From positions 1 to 55,671 of the forward strand of contig DUVA01000048.1 of the NCBI GenBank assembly GCA_012841305.1: 55,671 nucleotides of DNA, in the 5' to 3' direction. The DNA is from Bacillota bacterium (lineage in GTDB: Bacteria > Bacillota > SHA-98 > UBA4971). Below are positions 3,031 to 54,032 of the stretch, in pieces. The position numbers and the translations under genes were made by a program. Each line of letters opens with the position of its first letter. Position 1 is the stretch's first letter. Under the pieces are notes generated by a model that was given only the letters and a program-made list of their open reading frames with translations, had not been told where the DNA came from and made no database searches.

Positions 3031-4512
3031 GTGTCTGGAACTGGAAAGGCTATTAAAGTTGCCTTGGTAGTCCTGGTAACCTTGCTGGCAGGTATTATCA
3101 TATACGGTGCTGTGGTATTCAACCGGCCGGAACTTATGCCCCCAGGGCCATATCATCCTCGAGCATTGGTGTCGCAGTTTAGGGGGTACCGTGTCCACCC
3201 CTGGGTGAAAATCGATCCGACTAAGCAATATACATTGAAGATATGGAGCACTCGTTGGCCTATGTTTCGGGACGGCTACGGATATGACGATCTTATCGAA
3301 GAAGTAATTGACAAATTTCAGGCTGATTACCGGAATGTAGATGTTGAATATGTGCTTTTACCGTTAGATGAAGTCGGAAGGGCAATAGCTGAGGCGGTTG
3401 AAAACGCAACTCCTCCTAACATATGCATAGCTCCGTTCGATCCATCCCTTGTTGACAGTGGATTAGTCGTGCCTATCAACATGTTTATGTGTGACGAACC
3501 AAGAGACGATATTAAGGCTACCCCGGCTACAGACTTCGAACTCTCTTCTTTACAGGCTGTATCCGCAGGCAATCGCCTGTGGGCATGGCCTTCATGGATA
3601 GCAGTGAAATCTTGGGCAGGAAATGCAGCGATCCTGAGAGAGGTGGGCATTGATGTTGAGCGAGTCATGCTTTACGGATGGTCGTATGAAGATATCTTGA
3701 CAATGATAGAGACTCTAAGGGCGCGGGAAGCCGGAGTGCCGGAGCAATACATGACATATGGTCTTGTCCTGGATACAACAGCTACTCATGTCCTTGACAC
3801 ACTTATGGAGGCGACCGGACGAGGGCTTGTGCTATCAGAGGATGGCGACCTTATGTGGCAAGGAGAGGCCATAAGATCCAGCTTGTCTTTTCTTCAGGAT
3901 GTTAACGCAATGAATGGCTTTCCCGAGCCGATCCACATGATGACTGAGAGAATGCTCGAGCTTTTTTGGACAGGTAGGGCAGCTGTGATAGGGCCGGTAG
4001 GCCCTGGTTTTCTAAGACATGTCCGTGAAAGGCAGGATAGGATAACCGCAGGTGGTGTGTTCTCCGGAAAGGAAACGGTCGAGCCTGTACTTCTGCCTGT
4101 GCCTCATCCTACAGGAGGCATGAGCTCTCCATGTATCACTGTGCATGCAGCTGCGGTATTGACATATCCGGGCACAGGCGGGGAAGACACTGCATATCTG
4201 GCTGTCAGGCTTTCGGAAGCCCTGGCCAGAAAAGAGGCCTTGTGGCTTGCAGGCGAGTTGCCTGTGGTGCCTGCCAGAACCAAAGACCGTCAACATGGGT
4301 TTGATCTGGCCACCCGGCCTGACGGCGCCAGCCGGCGTTTTCTTCTGGGCGCCGCGTCATCCGGCCGGATGTACCGCAACCTATCTTCTGAGATGAAGGA
4401 AAAAGAGAAGCTTTTGCGAGAACAAGTAATCAGTCCCATGATGGATCAGTTTTGGAGAGGGGCTTTGAGCCCTGATGAGTTTAAACAACGCCTGCATGAT
4501 GCTGAGAGGTGA
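3031..4512 (+). CDS. Membrane-anchored extracellular solute-binding protein (ABC sugar-type SBP-like)
   Basis: N-terminal TM; 'IDKFQADYRNVDVEY', 'GNRLWAWP', 'LFWTGRAAV' resemble SBP family 1; RBS AGGAGG before GTG 3031. Confidence 0.65.
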   Translation: MSGTGKAIKVALVVLVTLLAGIIIYGAVVFNRPELMPPGPYHPRALVSQFRGYRVHPWVKIDPTKQYTLKIWSTRWPMFRDGYGYDDLIEEVIDKFQADYRNVDVEYVLLPLDEVGRAIAEAVENATPPNICIAPFDPSLVDSGLVVPINMFMCDEPRDDIKATPATDFELSSLQAVSAGNRLWAWPSWIAVKSWAGNAAILREVGIDVERVMLYGWSYEDILTMIETLRAREAGVPEQYMTYGLVLDTTATHVLDTLMEATGRGLVLSEDGDLMWQGEAIRSSLSFLQDVNAMNGFPEPIHMMTERMLELFWTGRAAVIGPVGPGFLRHVRERQDRITAGGVFSGKETVEPVLLPVPHPTGGMSSPCITVHAAAVLTYPGTGGEDTAYLAVRLSEALARKEALWLAGELPVVPARTKDRQHGFDLATRPDGASRRFLLGAASSGRMYRNLSSEMKEKEKLLREQVISPMMDQFWRGALSPDEFKQRLHDAER

Positions 4513-4928
4513 TCGAATTTCGCACACCTAAACCCTGATCTGTGCTCGAAAATAGTACACGTCCTTTGTGAAGACCCCTGCGGTGTCCGGTTTTCGATCA
4601 CGGATTCCGAAAACGTGCTCGAAAATAGCGCACGGTTCTCCAAACTTGTGTTCGAATTTCGATCAGGCACCGTTAGAAATCGCTTAATATGTAGCGTCGT
4701 TCGGGTTTAGTGATCCAAAATCGAACACCAAACCCGGAGGGTGTGCTCGAAAATAGGACACGGCTTCCGGAGAATCACCGATTTTCAGGTGCCCTCCGGC
4801 TTATTCGTGAAAGTGTGTTCGAAAATAGCACACGGCCGTCTACACCGGTGCTCGAATTTCAATCAGGCACCATCAAAAGTCGCTCACTATGTAGAGTTAT
4901 TTGGGTTTGGTGTTCGATAATCGAGCAC
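4509..4928. repeat. Array of ten 19-bp imperfect palindromes (consensus GTGTTCGA-N3-TCGAACAC / GTGCTCGAAAATAGTACAC)
   Basis: Units start at 4509, 4542, 4583, 4615, 4648, 4710, 4743, 4815, 4848, 4910; internal 200-bp-offset duplication (4615-4728 vs 4815-4928). Confidence 0.92.
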
Positions 4929-8181: not shown

Positions 8182-8292
8182 CTGCATGATTTTCCGCCAC
8201 CTTATGCGAGGCGATAGTCTGCGTGGTCGAAAACAGACCGCTTATCGGCTCTTTACTGCAGAAAACCCAAAAGGTGGTTGAGAATCGACCAT
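8182..8292. repeat. Mini-array of GTGGTCGA-N3-TCGACCAC-type palindromes
   Basis: CTGCATGATTTTCCGCCAC 8182 (degenerate), GTGGTCGAAAACAGACCGC 8223, GTGGTTGAGAATCGACCAT 8274. Confidence 0.6.
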
Positions 8293-8421
8293 GTTCGTGT
8301 TAACCGGCGTGATCCCAGGCGGGGACTATTTGGCGCTGCTCTTTAGTCGGCTCAAGCTTGATCTTAACTGAGATCTGCACTGTTTACCCTCTCTCGGAAG
8401 TCTTTTGCCTTGCGATTTGCG

Positions 8422-10225: not shown

Positions 10226-11008
10226 ATGAATAGACGAATTACTATGGCAGTGATGATTGCAGCTGCACTTGTGGTAGCGCTTATCATGCCTACTTACGCC
10301 TCTGCAGCTACAACGTACTACTCAAGCTCCGGAAGTTCCGGTTATCAGTATCCTGGCAGCAATTACTACTCAAGCGGTTCAGGATCAACCTATTACTACA
10401 ACAGTAACTCATCAGGGGGATCTACCTACTACTACAGCGGAAGGTCGTACTCGAATTCCGGTAGTAAGACTTATTACTACAACTCAGGCAACACCTGGTA
10501 TTATGGCGGTGGTTCGTACACGCCTTCCAGGCCTACTCCGACCCCAACTCCTCAACCGACTCCCACGCCTGAGCCAAACCCGGAACCCACACCTCAACCG
10601 GAGCCCACTCCTACACCGGGGCTCACCGCTGACGAGCAGAGGATGGTGGATTTGATTAATCAGGAAAGAGCAAAAGCAGGGCTTGCACCTCTCACTGTTG
10701 ACTTGAGGCTGGTTGACCTGGCCCGCAAGAAGAGTCAGGATATGATTACGAACAACTATTTCAGCCACACATCCCCGACTTACGGTGATCCTTTCAAGAT
10801 GATGACCGCAGCAGGGATCAGCTATCGAACTGCAGGTGAGAACTTAGCAGGGGCCAGAACCGTGGATCAAGCGCATTCAGCTCTTATGAATAGCGCAGGG
10901 CACCGTCAGAACATCCTTAGCCCGTCATACAACAAGGTTGGTGTAGGGATCGCTACCGGAGGTCCTTACGGCAGCATGTATACCCAGCTATTCATCGGCA
11001 CATGGTAA
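10226..11008 (+). CDS. Secreted CAP (SCP) domain protein, YkwD-like, with Tyr/Ser/Gly-rich region and PT/PE linker
   Basis: Signal peptide (AxA); LINQERAKAGL.PL, ARKKSQDM...YFSHTSP, GENLA, MNSAGHRQNIL. Confidence 0.92.
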   Translation: MNRRITMAVMIAAALVVALIMPTYASAATTYYSSSGSSGYQYPGSNYYSSGSGSTYYYNSNSSGGSTYYYSGRSYSNSGSKTYYYNSGNTWYYGGGSYTPSRPTPTPTPQPTPTPEPNPEPTPQPEPTPTPGLTADEQRMVDLINQERAKAGLAPLTVDLRLVDLARKKSQDMITNNYFSHTSPTYGDPFKMMTAAGISYRTAGENLAGARTVDQAHSALMNSAGHRQNILSPSYNKVGVGIATGGPYGSMYTQLFIGTW

Positions 11009-21822: not shown

Positions 21823-22775
21823 TATTCTGCCGAAGTGCCATACTTCACCTTAATAGCAGGGCAAGAAGTGCATTCTAAGCATTTTATACAGCCCTTGGAG
21901 TCTGCATCGAGATACGGGTCAATATCCATGGGGCAAGCTGCTCTGCAGGCCCCGCATTTGTTGCACAGCTCATTATCTACTTTAAGTCTTACGTAGCTTA
22001 CTTTGTTGAATGGGGAATATATGGTTCCAAGGGGACAGATGAATCTGCAAAAAGGTCTTTTGATGAGAATTGCGGCGACTATGAAAACCAATACTATGGC
22101 CATTTTCACGATAAACAAGGTTCCCGCCATAGCCCTGATCGACGGATCAATGGCCACCAGAGGCAACCCGGCTTCGAGGCCACCTGCCGGACATAGCTTG
22201 CAAAACAAAGGTTCTCCCGTGGCGAACGCCCCAATGAGAACAAGTCCGACAAAGACCGGGTACCGGGCGGCTTCCCAGGCGTGATGTCTGATTTTTACCT
22301 GCAGCTTCTTCCTGCCGAGTCTGATTTTGAAAAGGAGATCCTGCAGGAACCCGAACGGGCATGCCCACCCGCAGGTCATCCGTCCAACAAGCGCTCCTAT
22401 GACCGTGAAGAATCCCACCAGGGCAAAGGGAAATCTCCTTTGTCCGATAAAATGCTGGAGCGACCCGATAGGGCAAGCCATGACCGCGAGCGGGCATGCG
22501 TGGCAATTGAGTACGGGCGCAGGGCAAAACTTCAAAAGTGATAAGACATAGGAGTTGGCAAACACAAGCGATGCCAGTTGGACCAGTGTTCGCTTATGGA
22601 CAGCCGGCCTACTACTAACAACCGGCCTATTACTAACAGCTGGCTTATTACTAACTGCCCGCCCATTATTAATAGCTCGCTCACGATTGACAGCAGATTT
22701 ATGCCTGTCAGTTGCCGGCTTGCTTGTCATACCACGAATCCACGAACCCTTGATCTTCCAATCCCGCCTTCTCAC
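21822..22775 (-). CDS. Membrane 4Fe-4S binding protein (NapH/MauN-like)
   Basis: ACPIG, CGWACPFG, CKLCPAG, CRFICPLG, CNKCGACRAACP, CIKCLEC; start uncertain. Confidence 0.9.
   Translation of the reverse strand: MRRRDWKIKGSWIRGMTSKPATDRHKSAVNRERAINNGRAVSNKPAVSNRPVVSSRPAVHKRTLVQLASLVFANSYVLSLLKFCPAPVLNCHACPLAVMACPIGSLQHFIGQRRFPFALVGFFTVIGALVGRMTCGWACPFGFLQDLLFKIRLGRKKLQVKIRHHAWEAARYPVFVGLVLIGAFATGEPLFCKLCPAGGLEAGLPLVAIDPSIRAMAGTLFIVKMAIVLVFIVAAILIKRPFCRFICPLGTIYSPFNKVSYVRLKVDNELCNKCGACRAACPMDIDPYLDADSKGCIKCLECTSCPAIKVKYGTSAE
22600..22707. repeat. 18-bp in-frame tandem repeat encoding AVSNRP-like hexapeptides
   Basis: ACAGCCGGCCTACTACTA, ACAACCGGCCTATTACTA, ACAGCTGGCTTATTACTA, ACTGCCCGCCCATTATTA and degenerate copies. 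Confidence 0.8.
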
Positions 22776-41984: not shown

Positions 41985-42445
41985 GTGTTCGAAAATAGAA
42001 CACGGTTTCTAGAAAATCCCCAGCGACGGCCGAATGACATTCCATATTTTGGAGAATAAGTTGAAAAAGCTTGAATCCCCCGGGCAAGGTGATCGAATTT
42101 CGAACACCCCAACCCTGATCTGTGTTCGAAAATAGCGCACGTCTTTCCTAGAGACCCCTGGGGTGTCCGGTTTTCGATCACGAATTCCGAACTCGTGTTC
42201 GAGAATAGTACACGGTTCTCCGAACCTGTGTTCGGATTTCGAACAGGCGCTGTCAGAAGTCGCTCATTATGTAGAGTCATTTGGGTTTGGTGATCGAAAA
42301 TCGAACACCAAACCCAGAAGGTGTGCTCGAAAATAGTACACTGCTTCCAGAAAATCATTGATTTTCAGGCACCCTCCGGCTTATTTGTGAAAGTGTGCTC
42401 GAAAATAGTACACGCTCTCCAAAAGCATGTTCGAAAATCGAACAC
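41985..42445. repeat. Second copy of the GTGTTCGA-N3-TCGAACAC palindrome array
   Basis: Units at 41985, 42089, 42122, 42163, 42195, 42228, 42290, 42323, 42395, 42427; 42089-42413 aligns ungapped to 4509-4833 (47 mismatches in 325 bp by hand). Confidence 0.93.
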
Positions 42446-42601
42446 CTCGGCGAGACAAGCAAGCAGGTGGAAGGAAGTCAGATACTCCTATACATAGGTC
42501 GTCGGTAAAGATCAATGATCGGCAAATTCAGTTTATCGCATTTCCACTGACGAGCTCCTAGGTGGGGGCTATTTGACGCTCACAGTTTAGTGATTCGTGA
42601 A

Positions 42602-50401: not shown

Positions 50402-51736
50402 GTGGGCTTATTCTGCGCGACTATTCTCTGCGATTACAAGGGGGCGCATATTGAGGCAGTGAAACAGTTCGTCATCAGGATGATTAAAGGCTTTGAGCAG
50501 GCAAGCTCAAAATATCATATACCCTTTTTGATGGCTGTCTTATTAATAGCCGGAGGGGCTTTATGTATCATGGCCGGAACCGATGTGCATCCGGAGGCTG
50601 CAATGAATGAAGAGTTCCGAGGGCTGTGGGTTGTACGCACAAGCATGCAATCTCAAGAATCAATTGAGCAGGTGATCGAGAGAGCTGTAGAAAGCAATTT
50701 CAACGCCATCTTAGTCCAGGTCAATGGGCGCGGGGAAGCGTATTATGAAAGTGACATCGTGCCCAGGATGCCGGATGTGCCTGAAGGATTTGATCCTCTG
50801 GCGTTTTGCATCCAAAAGGCCCATGCTGCAGGCATAGAGGTGCACGCATGGATCAATGCTTTTACTGTAGGTGTGTTAGGGCGTAGTGATTATCAAGAGA
50901 AGCATGTGCTTAGTCAGCATCCTGAGTGGTCACTGGTAGATCTCGACCAGGTTTCGACCTTTGATTATACCCCGGGGACGGCCAGGGGTGAACTTGTTTC
51001 AGTGATGCTGGATCCTGCAATAGAGGGCGTAAAGGAGTACGTCCGTGAGGTGTTCATGGAGGTAGTCACTAACTACGATGTGGACGGTGTCCATTTCGAC
51101 TACATTAGATATCCCGGTAAGAAGTATGGGTATGGCCAAGAGGCTAGGGATGGGTTCAGAGAACTCACAGGCTATGATCCGCTGGACCTTGTAAAGCAGC
51201 CGGAGGCCTTGCGCGGCACAATCATAGATGGGAACGACCTCTTTGAGAGTCTCAGCGATAGGTGGGACGAGTTTCGCTGTGAGCAAGTGACTGAGGTGGT
51301 GCGGAGAGTCTATCAAGATGTTAAGCGGGCAAAGCCTGATGTAGTAGTGTCTTGTGCTGTGTTCCCCGATGCGGATCAGTCTCGTGCCTTGAGAATGCAG
51401 GATTGGCGGAGCTGGATTCAAGAAGGCATTGTAGACTTCGTAGTGCCAATGGCGTATACGCCGGATACCCAGAAGTTCATAGGCCATATCAGAACGGCTG
51501 TGGAAACGCCGCCCGGCGGAAAGGCTTTGGCCGGTGTCGGGGTTTATCTTATGCTGGACGATCCCAAGGACTGCATAGAAAAGATTGATGCTGCAAGGGA
51601 ACTTGGAACACCTGGGATAGTCCTATTTTCATACGATTCCATCAAGGAAAGGACAGGCTATTGGGAAGCTTTGGCGCGCGGTCCATTCAGTGATCAGGCA
51701 ACGGCCCCGAAAATGATCCGCCAGGCCTCAGACTGA
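50402..51736 (+). CDS. GHL10/DUF187 glycoside hydrolase-like protein (YddW/DigH-like); true start probably 50459-50480
   Basis: EFRGLWV, FDPL..I..AH..GIEVHAW, LDPA, YDVDGVHFDY.RYP, QDW..W...G.VD..PMAY. Confidence 0.88.
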   Translation: MGLFCATILCDYKGAHIEAVKQFVIRMIKGFEQASSKYHIPFLMAVLLIAGGALCIMAGTDVHPEAAMNEEFRGLWVVRTSMQSQESIEQVIERAVESNFNAILVQVNGRGEAYYESDIVPRMPDVPEGFDPLAFCIQKAHAAGIEVHAWINAFTVGVLGRSDYQEKHVLSQHPEWSLVDLDQVSTFDYTPGTARGELVSVMLDPAIEGVKEYVREVFMEVVTNYDVDGVHFDYIRYPGKKYGYGQEARDGFRELTGYDPLDLVKQPEALRGTIIDGNDLFESLSDRWDEFRCEQVTEVVRRVYQDVKRAKPDVVVSCAVFPDADQSRALRMQDWRSWIQEGIVDFVVPMAYTPDTQKFIGHIRTAVETPPGGKALAGVGVYLMLDDPKDCIEKIDAARELGTPGIVLFSYDSIKERTGYWEALARGPFSDQATAPKMIRQASD

Positions 51737-52121: not shown

Positions 52122-52574
52122 GTGGTCGATTTCCAACCACTTTTTTCAAGACGTTGCTTCAATTTCTACCACCTAATGGGATTGTTGGAATAAAAAATGC
52201 ATAAGTGATAGGTTCTCGACCACCTCCAACGGCAACGGTGGTTGTTTTTCGACCACATCTTTGGGCTAATGAAGGATTTCAATGCCTCTTTGAGGCGCAG
52301 GTGGAAGGTTTTCTACCACTTTTTTGGAAAAGGTGGCAGTTTTTCGCTCACCTTTTTGAAAAATGTGGTTGATTTTGTATCCACGATCCTTATGTGAAGG
52401 GGTTCTCTGTGATGAGGTGGTCTATATCCTACCACCTTGACGCTTGGGCCTGGTCGATAACCGACCACTAACAAGCCTCGACGTGGTCGATTATCAACCA
52501 CTCAGGCGATCCCTCTCGAAAAAGTGGTAGAAAATCATACAGCAAAAGAGAATTTGTGGTCGTTTTACGACCAC
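52122..52574. repeat. Array of about twelve 19-bp palindromes (consensus GTGGTCGA-N3-TCGACCAC)
   Basis: Units at 52122, 52154, 52205, 52238, 52301, 52333, 52365, 52417, 52450, 52483, 52524, 52556. Confidence 0.88.
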
Positions 52575-52579
52575 ACCGC

Positions 52580-52797
52580 ATGAGGCTTACAGTATGAGGC
52601 TCACAATATGAGGTTTACAGCATGACGCTTACAGTGAAGGTTCGGAATCAAGGGACTTAAGGTCAAGGGGCTTAAAGTCAAAGGACTCAATGCAGTTAAG
52701 GTTGAGCGTTGGAGCTCACCGTCGGGACGTGGAGCTGAGGCTTACATTTTTTGGACGAGTAGTAGACGAGTAGTAGATGAACGGTAGACGAATAGGA
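52580..52797. repeat. Three consecutive short tandem repeats (14, 15 and 11 bp)
   Basis: ATGAGGCTTACAGT x4 (52580-52635); TCAAGGGACTTAAGG x3 (52648-52692); GACGAGTAGTA x4 (52754-52797). Confidence 0.85.
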
Positions 52798-52877
52798 TCA
52801 GACGGAGATCTCGCACCTCCAAATTTGACGAAAAGGCCAACATGGCTCGAAAAACATTGAAAAACATTTAGGTTTGG

Positions 52878-52943
52878 GAAGGAATATCAGAAGTGCCGTA
52901 GAATGATAAGCTACAATGGCACATTTGTGCGGAACATATGTGC
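52878..52943 (+). promoter_or_regulatory. SigH-type promoter followed by a tandem palindromic operator
   Basis: GAAGGAATA-N11-GTAGAAT, then GCACATTTGTGC (52919) and GAACATATGTGC (52932). Confidence 0.55.
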
Positions 52944-53081
52944 AAGCAGAAGCATCAGTGCGGCCTCTGAATACTCTCGGATTTCGCAGGGCCTATGCTC
53001 ACCTGCCGCGGTGCGCTCCGCCGCTGCACATGGCGCGCTGTGCGGCTGCACGCCGGTAATATGATTCCCAGGGGTGTAAGA

Positions 53082-54032
53082 ATGGCTTTTGATGAACGCA
53101 CGCTATATGAAATCGCCAGGCACTACCACGAGCTGGGCAAAACGCAAAACGAAATTGCCGACAGTTTAGGCATATCCAGAAGCCAGGTTTCAAGAGCCCT
53201 GAAACAAGCGCAGGATGAAGGGATCGTCGTGATACACGTAATCCCTCCTGAGTTTGATTTCACTGACCTCGAAGCCAAACTGTGCTCCGTCTTCGGCCTT
53301 CGCGACGCAGCGGTCATCTTAGGCAGCGCCGGCTCGTCCAGGCTGCTTACACAAAACTTGGGCATGGCAGGCGCCAAGTATCTCGACAAGACGCTGAAGG
53401 CCGGCCATGTGGTAGGGGTATCGTGGGGGGCGACTCTCCGCGAACTCGTCGCAGCCTTTAGTGAGACAAAACCGACCCCCAGAGAGATAATGGTAGTTCC
53501 GCTTCTCGGCGGTCAGGGACAGGCCAGTCCCGACCTTCAAGTAAACGATATCGCATCCCGTGTCTCTATGACTTTTAGCGGGTCCCACCTATACCTGCAT
53601 GCTCCTTCATTTGTTGATACTCCTGAAGCACGCGCTACGATGCTGAACGACAGCAACATAAAGAACGTCGCGGACAAGTGGGCAACCGCGGACGTGGCCG
53701 TAATGGGAATAGGCTGTTTCGTCCCTCCTTCAACTTTGCTGGAGGAAGGAGGCTTTCCTCCTGACGAGTTAATCGAACTTGCGAAAATGGGGGTAGTCGG
53801 CGATATTTGCATGAGATTCTTCGATGTGCATGGCGAACCTGTCAATACTCCGCTGGGGGAACGGATCATCGGGGCAAGTCTGGAGCAGTTAAAGAGTATA
53901 GAGTGTGTTGTGGCGGTTGCAGGCGGTGTGAACAAAGCCCAGGCAATACTCGGAGCGCTCAGAACCGGTGTCGTGGATGTGTTAATTACTGATGATGTAG
54001 CTGCTCGAAGGGTGCTGGAAATGGCATCATGA
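53082..54032 (+). CDS. SorC/DeoR-family sugar-binding transcriptional regulator
   Basis: YH..G.TQ.EIA..LGISRSQVSR.L..A..EG.V; GVSWG.T; GVVGDIC; VAGG..K; LITD. Confidence 0.94.
   Translation: MAFDERTLYEIARHYHELGKTQNEIADSLGISRSQVSRALKQAQDEGIVVIHVIPPEFDFTDLEAKLCSVFGLRDAAVILGSAGSSRLLTQNLGMAGAKYLDKTLKAGHVVGVSWGATLRELVAAFSETKPTPREIMVVPLLGGQGQASPDLQVNDIASRVSMTFSGSHLYLHAPSFVDTPEARATMLNDSNIKNVADKWATADVAVMGIGCFVPPSTLLEEGGFPPDELIELAKMGVVGDICMRFFDVHGEPVNTPLGERIIGASLEQLKSIECVVAVAGGVNKAQAILGALRTGVVDVLITDDVAARRVLEMAS

What the first reader, a model, noticed from the sequence alone, without database searches (positions are those of the whole stretch)
52122..52574. Palindrome array B: same grammar, different specificity
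About twelve units are spaced 32, 51, 33, 63, 32, 32, 52, 33, 33, 41, 32. The consensus differs from array A by a symmetric T>G / A>C change at positions 4 and 16, which keeps the dyad. Spacers are unrelated to each other and to array A, and several contain A/T tracts that could bend DNA. The compensatory change suggests a paralogous reader or a conserved hairpin.
Basis: partly seen in the sequence, partly recalled or inferred. Interest (0 to 1): 0.78.

Follow-up and report, generated by a model that had tools for sequence, protein, structure and literature searches.

The report
Dispersed phased palindrome-array repeat, family B
The twelve palindromes are real, but they form one copy of a roughly 450-base non-coding repeat scattered between genes of one genus of uncultured spore-forming anaerobes, and their whole-helical-turn spacing suggests a docking array for an unidentified DNA-binding protein rather than a local switch or an RNA.

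Summary

- **Dispersed repeat.** It is one copy of a 452-bp repeat. The 2.48-Mb assembly has 27 B-type arrays, 16 sister A-type arrays and 18 others. All are intergenic.
- **Genus-restricted.** B occurs in 6 of 7 same-genus genomes and 0 of 33 others searched.
- **Conserved length.** 42 copies from five genomes are 57-95% identical yet 451-459 bp long.
- **Helical phasing.** Unit positions follow a 10.55-10.6-bp period with R about 0.91. At most 2 of 5000 random-spacing arrays reach that.
- **No covariation.** Pairing shows nothing beyond conserved sequence.
- **A versus B.** G at position 4 and C at position 16 separate B from A almost completely.
- **No mobilising enzyme.** I found no cognate Y1 transposase, no multicopy transposase and no target duplication.

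Best reading (0.55): a BIME-like modular repeat whose units are one-face docking sites for an unknown dimeric protein. The A/B difference fits two recognition classes, but the reader protein is unidentified.

Earlier notes of this scan describe similar phased palindrome arrays on other DNA, mostly Kiritimatiellia. I did not check those notes.

The parts
52122..52574 (+). One full-length copy of the B-family dispersed repeat (452-453 bp, 12 units).
   Evidence: blastn finds 15 full-length copies and 26 hits in the assembly, with element limits at 52123-52574.
52122..52140 (.). Unit 1, the left terminal unit.
52154..52172 (.). Unit 2. The left half is degenerate in this copy.
   Evidence: The unit is intact in the G003 consensus.
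52205..52223 (.). Unit 3.
52238..52256 (.). Unit 4.
52301..52319 (.). Unit 5, an asymmetric subtype that also occurs in reverse orientation at other positions.
52333..52351 (.). Unit 6.
52365..52383 (.). Unit 7. The right half is degenerate in this copy.
   Evidence: The unit is intact in the G003 consensus.
52417..52435 (.). Unit 8.
52450..52468 (.). Unit 9. Its central A/T tract is reversed.
52483..52501 (.). Unit 10.
52524..52542 (.). Unit 11. Its centre is reversed and its right half is degenerate.
52556..52574 (.). Unit 12, the right terminal unit. The element boundary is sharp here.
41985..42454 (+). Copy of the sister A family (about 470 bp).
4507..4928 (+). A second A-family copy, about 86% identical to the first including its spacers.
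8223..8292 (-). Two-unit fragment of a B element in reverse orientation, abutting another dispersed repeat at 8293-8340.
50402..51736 (+). Upstream neighbour gene, a GHL10-type glycosyl hydrolase-like gene. It is not part of the element.
52995..54032 (+). Downstream neighbour gene, a SorC-family sugar-binding regulator. Its orthologues in three other species have no array upstream.

Best explanation
Array B is one copy of a genus-specific, non-coding, dispersed modular repeat of about 452 bp. It is inserted between two unrelated genes.

**Shown.** It is multicopy, intergenic and present or absent at orthologous sites. Copies are more alike within a genome than between genomes. Length is constant. 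It is built of 12 dyad sites, with conserved core T2 G3 G4 .. G7 A8 / T12 C13 .. C16 C17 A18, whose positions keep register with the DNA helical repeat.

**Inferred.**
- The units act as double-stranded docking sites for a dimeric sequence-specific protein. About a dozen dimers would sit on one face of roughly 450 bp, and the phased central A/T tracts add curvature.
- That protein, or the complex it forms, accounts for the maintenance and spread of the arrays.
- Family A is a diverged sister element with a different recognition code at the symmetric positions 4 and 16. A and B would then be two specificity classes, in the manner of incompatibility groups.

The array is not a regulator of the neighbouring SorC gene.
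For: **Copy number and location**
- The assembly holds 61 arrays of at least 4 units: 546 units and 24,253 bp in all.
- Of the 61 arrays, 27 are B, 16 are A, and 18 fall in small groups (4, 3, 2 and nine singletons).
- All 39 arrays of at least 250 bp lie outside credible ORFs.

**Distribution**
- B occurs in 6 of 7 same-genus genomes and 0 of 33 others.
- A occurs in 3 of 7 same-genus genomes and 0 of 13 others.

**Presence and absence at orthologous sites**
- The spacer upstream of the SorC orthologue has no unit in G002, G003 or G006.
- The site of the C191 copy is filled in G000, G002 and G005. In G005 the copy has a 210-bp internal deletion.
- In G004 that site is reduced to about 13 nt of one end unit, and the element is lacking in G006 and G007.

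**Concerted evolution**
- Identity within a genome is 0.90 (G003), 0.95 (G006) and 0.79 (G000).
- Identity between genomes is 0.57-0.68, apart from G000 and G005, which share the family at 0.79.

**Length constraint**
- The 42 copies are 451-459 bp long.
- A pair of copies differs on average by 125 substitutions but only 2.0 gap events.
- G003 has 21 full-length copies of 444-455 bp.

**Helical phasing**
- The best period is 10.6 bp (R 0.918) for B and 10.55 bp (R 0.91) for both A copies. At most 2 of 5000 random-spacing arrays reach these values.
- Genome-wide, 305 of 324 neighbouring-unit spacings lie within 1.6 bp of a multiple of 10.5, against about 99 expected.

**A and B compared**
- Between A and reversed B, 7 of 9 matched intervals agree within 2 bp. 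The other two differ by +11 and -21 bp.
- The collinear alignment scores 147, against 124 +/- 14 for module-permuted controls, of which 13 of 300 reach it.

**Sequence conserved, not pairing**
- There is no covariation beyond column composition.

**A precedent for the site type**
- A viral contig carries five A-type sites 22-23 bp apart inside a DnaD_N-like gene, next to an IstB-like ATPase gene and an SSB gene. This looks like a phage origin, so such sites can be phased protein-binding iterons.
Against: - No reader protein was identified.
- No DNA-binding or transposase gene recurs next to the arrays.
- ParB-like genes number two in G000 and two to four in the other four genomes searched, array-free G001 included.
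- Copies are related by descent. The phasing therefore rests on only about two to four independent architectures (B, A and two small families), not on 61 arrays.
- The A/B collinearity is only moderately supported (13 of 300 permutations).
- The units are palindromes. The 453-nt RNA folds far better than shuffles (z = -7.0), and several units are followed by T runs: 4 terminator-like sites against 1.3 expected.
- Pieces of B-family sequence occur in contigs of an RNA library.
- The covariation test has little power where columns barely vary.
- The low indel rate is judged against an indel-to-substitution ratio that I recall from the literature and did not measure here.
Confidence: 0.55

Rival explanations
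1. It is a REP/BIME-type element in the strict sense. The units would act as single-stranded DNA hairpins, cut and copied by a Y1 (HUH) REP-associated transposase. The helical register would then be a by-product of modular duplication.
For: - The units are short imperfect palindromes in high copy, extragenic, clustered and species-specific. This matches the description of REPs and BIMEs in the abstract of PMC2817692.
- Array length varies by module duplication at the ends.
- A Y1_Tnp remnant lies about 300 bp from a B array in G005.
Against: - PF01797 search: G000 has one frameshifted copy with no unit within about 1.5 kb.
- G003 has none, at 92% completeness, yet holds 21 full-length copies at 83-91% identity.
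- G001 has two intact copies and no array.
- The G005 remnant has no open frame.
- Pairing is not maintained beyond sequence conservation, and pairs 5:15 and 6:14 are often unpaired.
- Orientation alternates only in part of A and hardly at all in B.
Confidence: 0.18
2. It acts at the RNA level, as a multi-hairpin 3' or 5' untranslated element (terminator, insulator or mRNA stabiliser) or as a multicopy non-coding RNA.
For: - Fold z-score is -7.0.
- Terminator-like sites number 4 against 1.3 expected.
- Of 21 arrays with genes on both sides, 19 adjoin at least one gene end (12 tandem, 7 convergent, 2 divergent).
- B-family pieces appear in metatranscriptome contigs.
Against: - Rfam gives no match at gathering thresholds.
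- There is no covariation.
- In tandem gene contexts B is co-oriented 6 times and anti-oriented 3 times. A is co-oriented 3 of 3 times, but A corresponds to reversed B, so no strand is consistently the transcribed one.
- A helical register of 10.55-10.6 bp has no meaning for RNA.
- The RNA evidence is contigs only. They are of other copies, and carry-over of DNA is not excluded.
Confidence: 0.1
3. It is a decaying selfish repeat with no present function. The palindromes and the register would be relics of an ancestral mobile element or plasmid/phage iteron array.
For: - No partner gene was found.
- Truncated and internally deleted copies exist.
Against: - Length is kept at 451-459 bp in 42 copies that differ at about 27% of sites.
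- Units carry more information than spacers, 1.47 against 1.20 bits.
- Register is kept where A and B spacers differ in length.
- G003 and G006 have young copies at 0.90 and 0.95 identity, which implies recent spread.
Confidence: 0.12
4. It is a local operator array through which the neighbouring SorC-family regulator, or another factor, controls the adjacent genes.
For: It lies 421 bp upstream of a regulator gene.
Against: - The same element sits beside unrelated genes at 26 other places.
- Orthologous SorC genes in three species have no array but share a conserved block at window 52853-52994, downstream of the array.
Confidence: 0.02

Closest known systems
REP / BIME elements of enterobacteria and pseudomonads, with RAYT transposases (PMC2817692: abstract read; PMC3116915 and PMC3337134: search listing only)
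   Same: Short imperfect palindromes in high copy between genes. They are clustered at regular spacing into modular mosaic arrays, are species-specific, evolve in concert within a genome, and have been proposed as protein-binding sites.
   Different: - No cognate Y1 transposase was found.
- The whole ~450-bp array, spacers included, is the repeated unit, and its length is fixed.
- Orientation is mostly not alternating.
- Pairing is not maintained beyond sequence.
- Units keep strict helical register over about 430 bp.
- The host is an uncultured spore-forming Bacillota genus.
Bacterial MITEs (review PMC10969869: search listing only)
   Same: Non-coding, under 500 bp, multicopy, intergenic, present or absent at orthologous sites, with inverted-repeat-like ends.
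   Different: - The ends are simply further copies of the internal palindrome.
- No target-site duplication was seen.
- The left boundary is blurred by extra degenerate modules.
- No related transposase gene was found.
Iteron or centromere arrays of plasmids and phages: replication-origin iterons, and partition sites made of about a dozen repeated dyad sites (recalled from general knowledge, no paper read)
   Same: Arrays of about 5-12 dyad or repeated binding sites spaced by whole helical turns, bound cooperatively by dimers, with specificity classes that differ at a few symmetric bases. One viral contig found here carries the A-type site as a five-iteron array in a replication module.
   Different: These arrays are chromosomal, in about 60 places, beside housekeeping genes, and never next to a replication or partition gene.
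Phased palindrome arrays noted earlier in this scan in other phyla (e1-1116198, e1-1122539, e1-5045434, e1-1458251, e1-3234917; AI notes, unchecked)
   Same: Dispersed intergenic arrays of 15-19-bp palindromes spaced by whole helical turns, with no RAYT, read as docking sites for an unknown protein.
   Different: - The sequence, phylum and architecture differ.
- Here a fixed 12-unit, 452-bp element has a sister family of altered specificity in the same genome.

Membership tests
REP/BIME (RAYT-mobilised) | Short palindromic units in high copy, extragenic. | tested here: met
   546 units in 61 arrays. All 39 arrays of at least 250 bp are intergenic.
REP/BIME (RAYT-mobilised) | Regularly spaced units in alternating orientation within clusters (abstract of PMC2817692). 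| tested here: inconclusive
   Spacing is regular in whole helical turns. Orientation, judged by the central A/T tract and the unit subtype, alternates only in the first six units of A. In B it is the same for 10 of 12 units.
REP/BIME (RAYT-mobilised) | A cognate Y1 (RAYT) gene flanked by the units, its presence correlating with unit abundance. | tested here: not met
   PF01797 search: G000 has one frameshifted copy with no units nearby. G003 has none despite 21 full-length copies. G001 has two intact copies and no arrays. The assemblies are 89-96% complete, so absence is not proven.
REP/BIME (RAYT-mobilised) | Stem-loop kept by selection. | tested here: not met
   73.7% of cells pair against 73.2% in shuffles. 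Covariation is 0.086 against 0.084, reached by 98 of 500 shuffles.
MITE | Terminal inverted repeats and a target-site duplication. | tested here: not met
   The ends are palindromic units like the internal ones. No duplication was seen at the flanks of 15 G000 copies, 14 G003 copies, 3 G006 copies and 1 G007 copy. The left end runs on into degenerate modules.
MITE | A related autonomous element with a transposase. | tested here: not met
   Among 2954 ORFs of at least 120 aa, no multicopy transposase was found. The largest clusters were spurious frames inside A arrays and fumarase paralogues. No gene family recurs beside the arrays. Insertion sequences are often missing from metagenome assemblies.
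CRISPR array | Identical direct repeats separated by unique spacers of near-constant length. | tested here: not met
   Units are 19-bp dyads with unequal spacings of 32-63 bp. Spacers are conserved between copies.
Plasmid/phage iteron or centromere array | Phased repeated binding sites. | tested here: met
Plasmid/phage iteron or centromere array | Location beside the gene of the initiator or partition protein that reads it. | tested here: not met
   Neighbours are hydrolase, regulator, transporter, rubrerythrin, amidase and amylase genes. ParB-like genes number two in G000 and two to four in the other genomes searched, array-free G001 included.
Known structured RNA family | A match to a curated covariance model. 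| tested here: not met
   Rfam at gathering thresholds gives 0 matches in the window.

The most novel reading that the evidence does not exclude
The A and B arrays would be landing pads for two co-evolved, perhaps paralogous, dimeric DNA-binding proteins. Each array would carry about a dozen dimers on one face of roughly 450 bp of curved DNA, at some 60 places per chromosome. This would be an undescribed chromosome-structuring or self-propagating 'operator-array' system with incompatibility-like specificity classes. All 12 sites of one lineage switched code together (not-G/not-C to G/C at the symmetric positions 4 and 16), and spacers changed length only by whole helical turns. Together with the similar arrays that this scan noted in other phyla, it would point to a widespread, unnamed class of bacterial genome element.
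Probability: 0.3. Interest if true: 0.8.

Novelty: new variant of a known kind. Interest (0 to 1): 0.55.

Why it matters
- About 1% of this genome consists of these arrays, yet no searched paper describes them. Searches returned only the general REP, BIME, MITE and HIP1 literature.
- If the units are docking sites, the genus encodes an abundant, unknown sequence-specific DNA-binding activity with two recognition classes. The arrays would then be a natural system for studying how a multi-site element and its reader change specificity together.
- On the practical side, these repeats break assemblies, since many copies lie at contig ends. They should not be mistaken for operators of neighbouring genes, for CRISPR arrays or for origins.

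Tried and rejected
- **RNA evidence.** One search for sequencing runs and one laying of four runs gave contigs only. An RNA-library contig stops at 52122, and short pieces of other B copies occur in one RNA library. Neither shows transcription, strand or ends.
- **Empty site.** No clean empty site was found. The spacer in other species is largely unalignable, and the G004 'empty' site of the C191 copy keeps a half unit, so it is a deletion.
- **Y1 transposase link.** Rejected.
- **ParB/Noc paralogue expansion.** None found.
- **Recurrent neighbour genes.** Only ABC ATPases and MatE transporters recur.
- **Two unknown ~510-aa proteins next to an A and a B array.** They are unrelated.
- **Genes between two B arrays on C51.** They are housekeeping genes.
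- **Scan of genome contigs with a B-unit pattern.** All were single, chance-like hits except a few Bacillota metagenome records with 7-12 units.
- **Scan of viral contigs with the B pattern.** It gave 8 single hits in mostly high-GC contigs, consistent with chance.
- **First global alignment of A against B.** With a harsh scoring scheme it was uninformative, and I repeated it with a softer scheme.
- **Solo and doublet units beside candidate regulator genes.** I listed them but none was convincing.
- **Supplementary files of papers.** Not consulted.

Full report
**1. What is there**

Window 52122-52574 contains 12 units of a 19-bp dyad, consensus GTGGTCGA-N3-TCGACCAC. They start at 52122, 52154, 52205, 52238, 52301, 52333, 52365, 52417, 52450, 52483, 52524 and 52556.

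Nine units match GTGG-N11-CCAC with at most one mismatch. These are 9 of the 24 such matches in the window, and they lie within 453 bp. The window-wide total is not above shuffles.

Units 2, 7 and 11 are half-degenerate here. Units 2 and 7 are intact in another species' consensus.

The window also holds two arrays of a sister motif, GTGTTCGA-N3-TCGAACAC, at 4507-4928 and 41985-42454. These two are about 86% identical to each other, spacers included.

**2. Context**

The window comes from a 2.48-Mb, 278-contig, 50% GC assembly. The organism is a spore-forming member of the Bacillota, with YabG, KsgA, an alpha/beta-type SASP and DegV genes nearby. Near-identical DNA occurs in runs labelled anaerobic digester, bioreactor and landfill metagenomes.

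The array lies between a GHL10 hydrolase-like gene and a SorC-family regulator gene, both on the + strand.

**3. It is a dispersed repeat**

- blastn of the region against the assembly gives matches whose limits coincide with 52123-52574, at 75-85% identity. 15 of the 26 hits are full length.
- A unit-based census finds 61 arrays of at least 4 units, holding 546 units and 24,253 bp, about 1% of the assembly.
- Similarity clustering gives 27 B arrays, 16 A arrays, groups of 4, 3 and 2, and 9 singletons.
- Copies occur in both orientations and often at contig ends.
- All 39 arrays of at least 250 bp are intergenic. Of the 21 with genes on both sides, 12 lie between tandem genes, 7 between convergent genes and 2 between divergent genes.
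- Neighbouring genes are unrelated housekeeping genes.

**4. Distribution and dynamics**

- B is found in 6 of 7 genomes of the same genus and in none of 33 other relatives searched.
- A is found in 3 of 7 same-genus genomes and none of 13 others.
- One same-genus genome (G001, 96% complete) shows neither family.
- The spacer upstream of the orthologous SorC gene in G002, G003 and G006 has no unit. A block at window 52853-52994, just upstream of the gene, is conserved in all four genomes.
- For the copy on C191, the orthologous site is filled in G000, G002 and G005, the last with a 210-bp internal deletion. In G004 it is reduced to about 13 nt of an end unit, and in G006 and G007 the element is lacking.
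- Copies are more alike within a genome (0.90 in G003, 0.95 in G006, 0.79 in G000) than between genomes (0.57-0.68). G000 and G005 share the family at 0.79.

These are the marks of an element that spreads, or is homogenised, within genomes.

**5. Architecture is conserved far better than sequence**

- The 42 copies from five genomes are 451-459 bp long, and 40 of them are 451-455 bp.
- A pair differs on average by 125 substitutions but only 2.0 gap events, a ratio of 0.016.
- G003 has 21 full-length copies of 444-455 bp at 83-100% identity.
- Units carry somewhat more information than spacers, 1.47 against 1.20 bits per column.
- The right boundary is sharp. The left side often continues into extra, more degenerate modules or into other dispersed repeats, and some copies repeat the last ~124 bp.
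- No target-site duplication was seen.

**6. Hairpin or double-stranded site?**

On the 42-copy alignment, the 12 putative hairpins (96 pairs) pair in 73.7% of cells, against 73.2% after shuffling partners. The covariation score is 0.086 against 0.084, reached by 98 of 500 shuffles. Cells changed on both sides number 67 against 59.5, reached by 45 of 500 shuffles. Pairs 5:15 and 6:14 are unpaired in many copies.

What is kept is a sequence pattern: T2 G3 G4, G7 A8, T12 C13, C16 C17 A18.

Unit positions keep register with the DNA helix. The best period is 10.6 bp for B (R 0.918) and 10.55 bp for both A copies (R 0.91). Of 5000 arrays with random spacings of 25-75 bp, 0, 2 and 2 reach these values. 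Genome-wide, 305 of 324 spacings between neighbouring units fall within 1.6 bp of a multiple of 10.5, against about 99 expected. The copies are related, so this figure is descriptive.

A helical register is meaningful for proteins bound to duplex DNA, not for RNA. I therefore favour one-face docking sites for a dimeric protein, with the central A/T tracts adding in-phase curvature. That last point is inference.

**7. A versus B**

- Position 4 is G in 231 of 282 B units and 11 of 182 A units.
- Position 16 is C in 239 of 282 B units and 4 of 182 A units.
- In A these positions are 'not G' and 'not C' rather than strictly T and A.
- Arrays are homogeneous, apart from a few junctions of adjacent elements.
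- B read in reverse aligns unit for unit with A. Seven of nine matched intervals agree within 2 bp, and two differ by +11 and -21 bp, that is by one and two helical turns.
- The collinear alignment scores 147, against 104 for the forward orientation and 124 +/- 14 for module-permuted controls. 13 of 300 controls reach 147, so the support is moderate.

If A and B descend from one element, all 12 units changed code in the same way. A change in a sequence-specific reader explains that better than hairpin maintenance does.

**8. Search for a partner gene**

- Y1 transposase (PF01797): G000 has one frameshifted copy with no units nearby. G003 has none. G005 has a remnant without an open frame about 300 bp from a B array. 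Array-free G001 has two intact copies.
- No multicopy transposase was found among 2954 ORFs.
- No gene family recurs beside the arrays.
- ParB-like genes number two in G000 and two to four in the other four genomes searched, G001 included.
- Metagenome assemblies often lose insertion sequences, so absence is not proven.

**9. Elsewhere**

- A scan of genome contigs for a B-unit pattern gave arrays only in a few Bacillota metagenome records.
- In viral contigs, one AT-rich contig carries five A-type sites 22-23 bp apart. They lie inside a gene with a weak DnaD_N match (E 3.4e-4, below Pfam's cut-off), next to an IstB-like ATPase gene and an SSB gene. This has the layout of a phage origin inside its initiator gene.
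- Another viral contig has four 29-bp palindromes with the same core.
- This shows that such a site can be a phased protein-binding iteron. It does not link those phages to this host.
- The B pattern gave only single hits in viral contigs.

**10. RNA**

Rfam gives no match. The RNA fold is much better than shuffles (z = -7.0), as any set of palindromes would be. There are four terminator-like sites against 1.3 expected.

Orientation relative to flanking genes is not consistent once A is read as reversed B. The contig-level RNA data could not decide the question.

**11. Comparison with the known**

The closest described kind is REP/BIME, as characterised in the abstract of PMC2817692. This family fails the RAYT and hairpin criteria. 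It also differs in having a fixed 12-unit architecture and a strict helical register.

It is not a classical MITE, since it has no target duplication and no partner transposase. It is not a CRISPR array, not a local operator array, and not a known RNA.

Four literature searches returned nothing that describes it.

Earlier notes of this scan report phased palindrome arrays in Kiritimatiellia, Limnocylindria, an actinomycete and a Bacteroidaceae species. I reached the phasing result before reading them, and I did not test their claims.

**12. Verdict**

It is a copy of an undescribed, genus-specific dispersed repeat, and it most likely serves as a phased protein-docking array. How it spreads and which protein reads it remain unknown.

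Noticed in passing
window 52575-52790: Three short tandem repeats lie directly downstream of the array: four copies of a 14-bp unit (52575-52635), about three copies of a 15-bp unit (about 52640-52690), and two copies of an 11-bp unit (about 52755-52780). One other B copy, on C51, shares the first ~40 bp of this flank with a single 14-mer.
   Followed up: partly
window 52853-52994: A block just upstream of the SorC-family regulator gene is conserved in four species and contains short palindromes. It is likely the gene's own promoter or operator, left intact by the array insertion.
   Followed up: no
window 8223-8340: A two-unit fragment of a B element in reverse orientation is joined to another dispersed repeat that also adjoins the left end of several B copies. 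The same junction occurs on C110.
   Followed up: partly
G000 C10:8160-8310 and at least 12 other loci: A further ~100-150-bp dispersed repeat family often lies near the arrays.
   Followed up: no
L201 4426-4534: A viral contig (37% GC) has five A-type 19-bp dyads at 22-23-bp spacing. They lie inside a 249-aa DnaD_N-like gene, beside genes for an IstB-like ATPase, an SSB and an HNH nuclease. This is probably a phage replication origin within its initiator gene.
   Followed up: partly
L198 1526-1554, 4379-4407, 6509-6537, 13157-13185: A viral contig (42% GC) has four dispersed 29-bp palindromes whose core equals the A-type unit. They look like operators of a phage regulator.
   Followed up: no
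L188-L191 (G003), right of the B copy: Four G003 copies share a further ~350 bp to the right that contains a tandem repeat of about 134 bp. Two of these loci are 99.6% identical over 1198 bp, a recent segmental duplication.
   Followed up: no
window 10531-10630 and 22600-22653: 18-bp tandem repeats lie inside ORFs: a Pro/Thr-rich-looking repeat at 10531-10630 and three copies at 22600-22653.
   Followed up: no
G000 C19:4300-5754, C128, C241: There are three copies of the fumarate hydratase alpha-subunit gene at 70% identity or more, and two of them are followed by the beta-subunit gene. This was the only real multicopy protein family found.
   Followed up: partly
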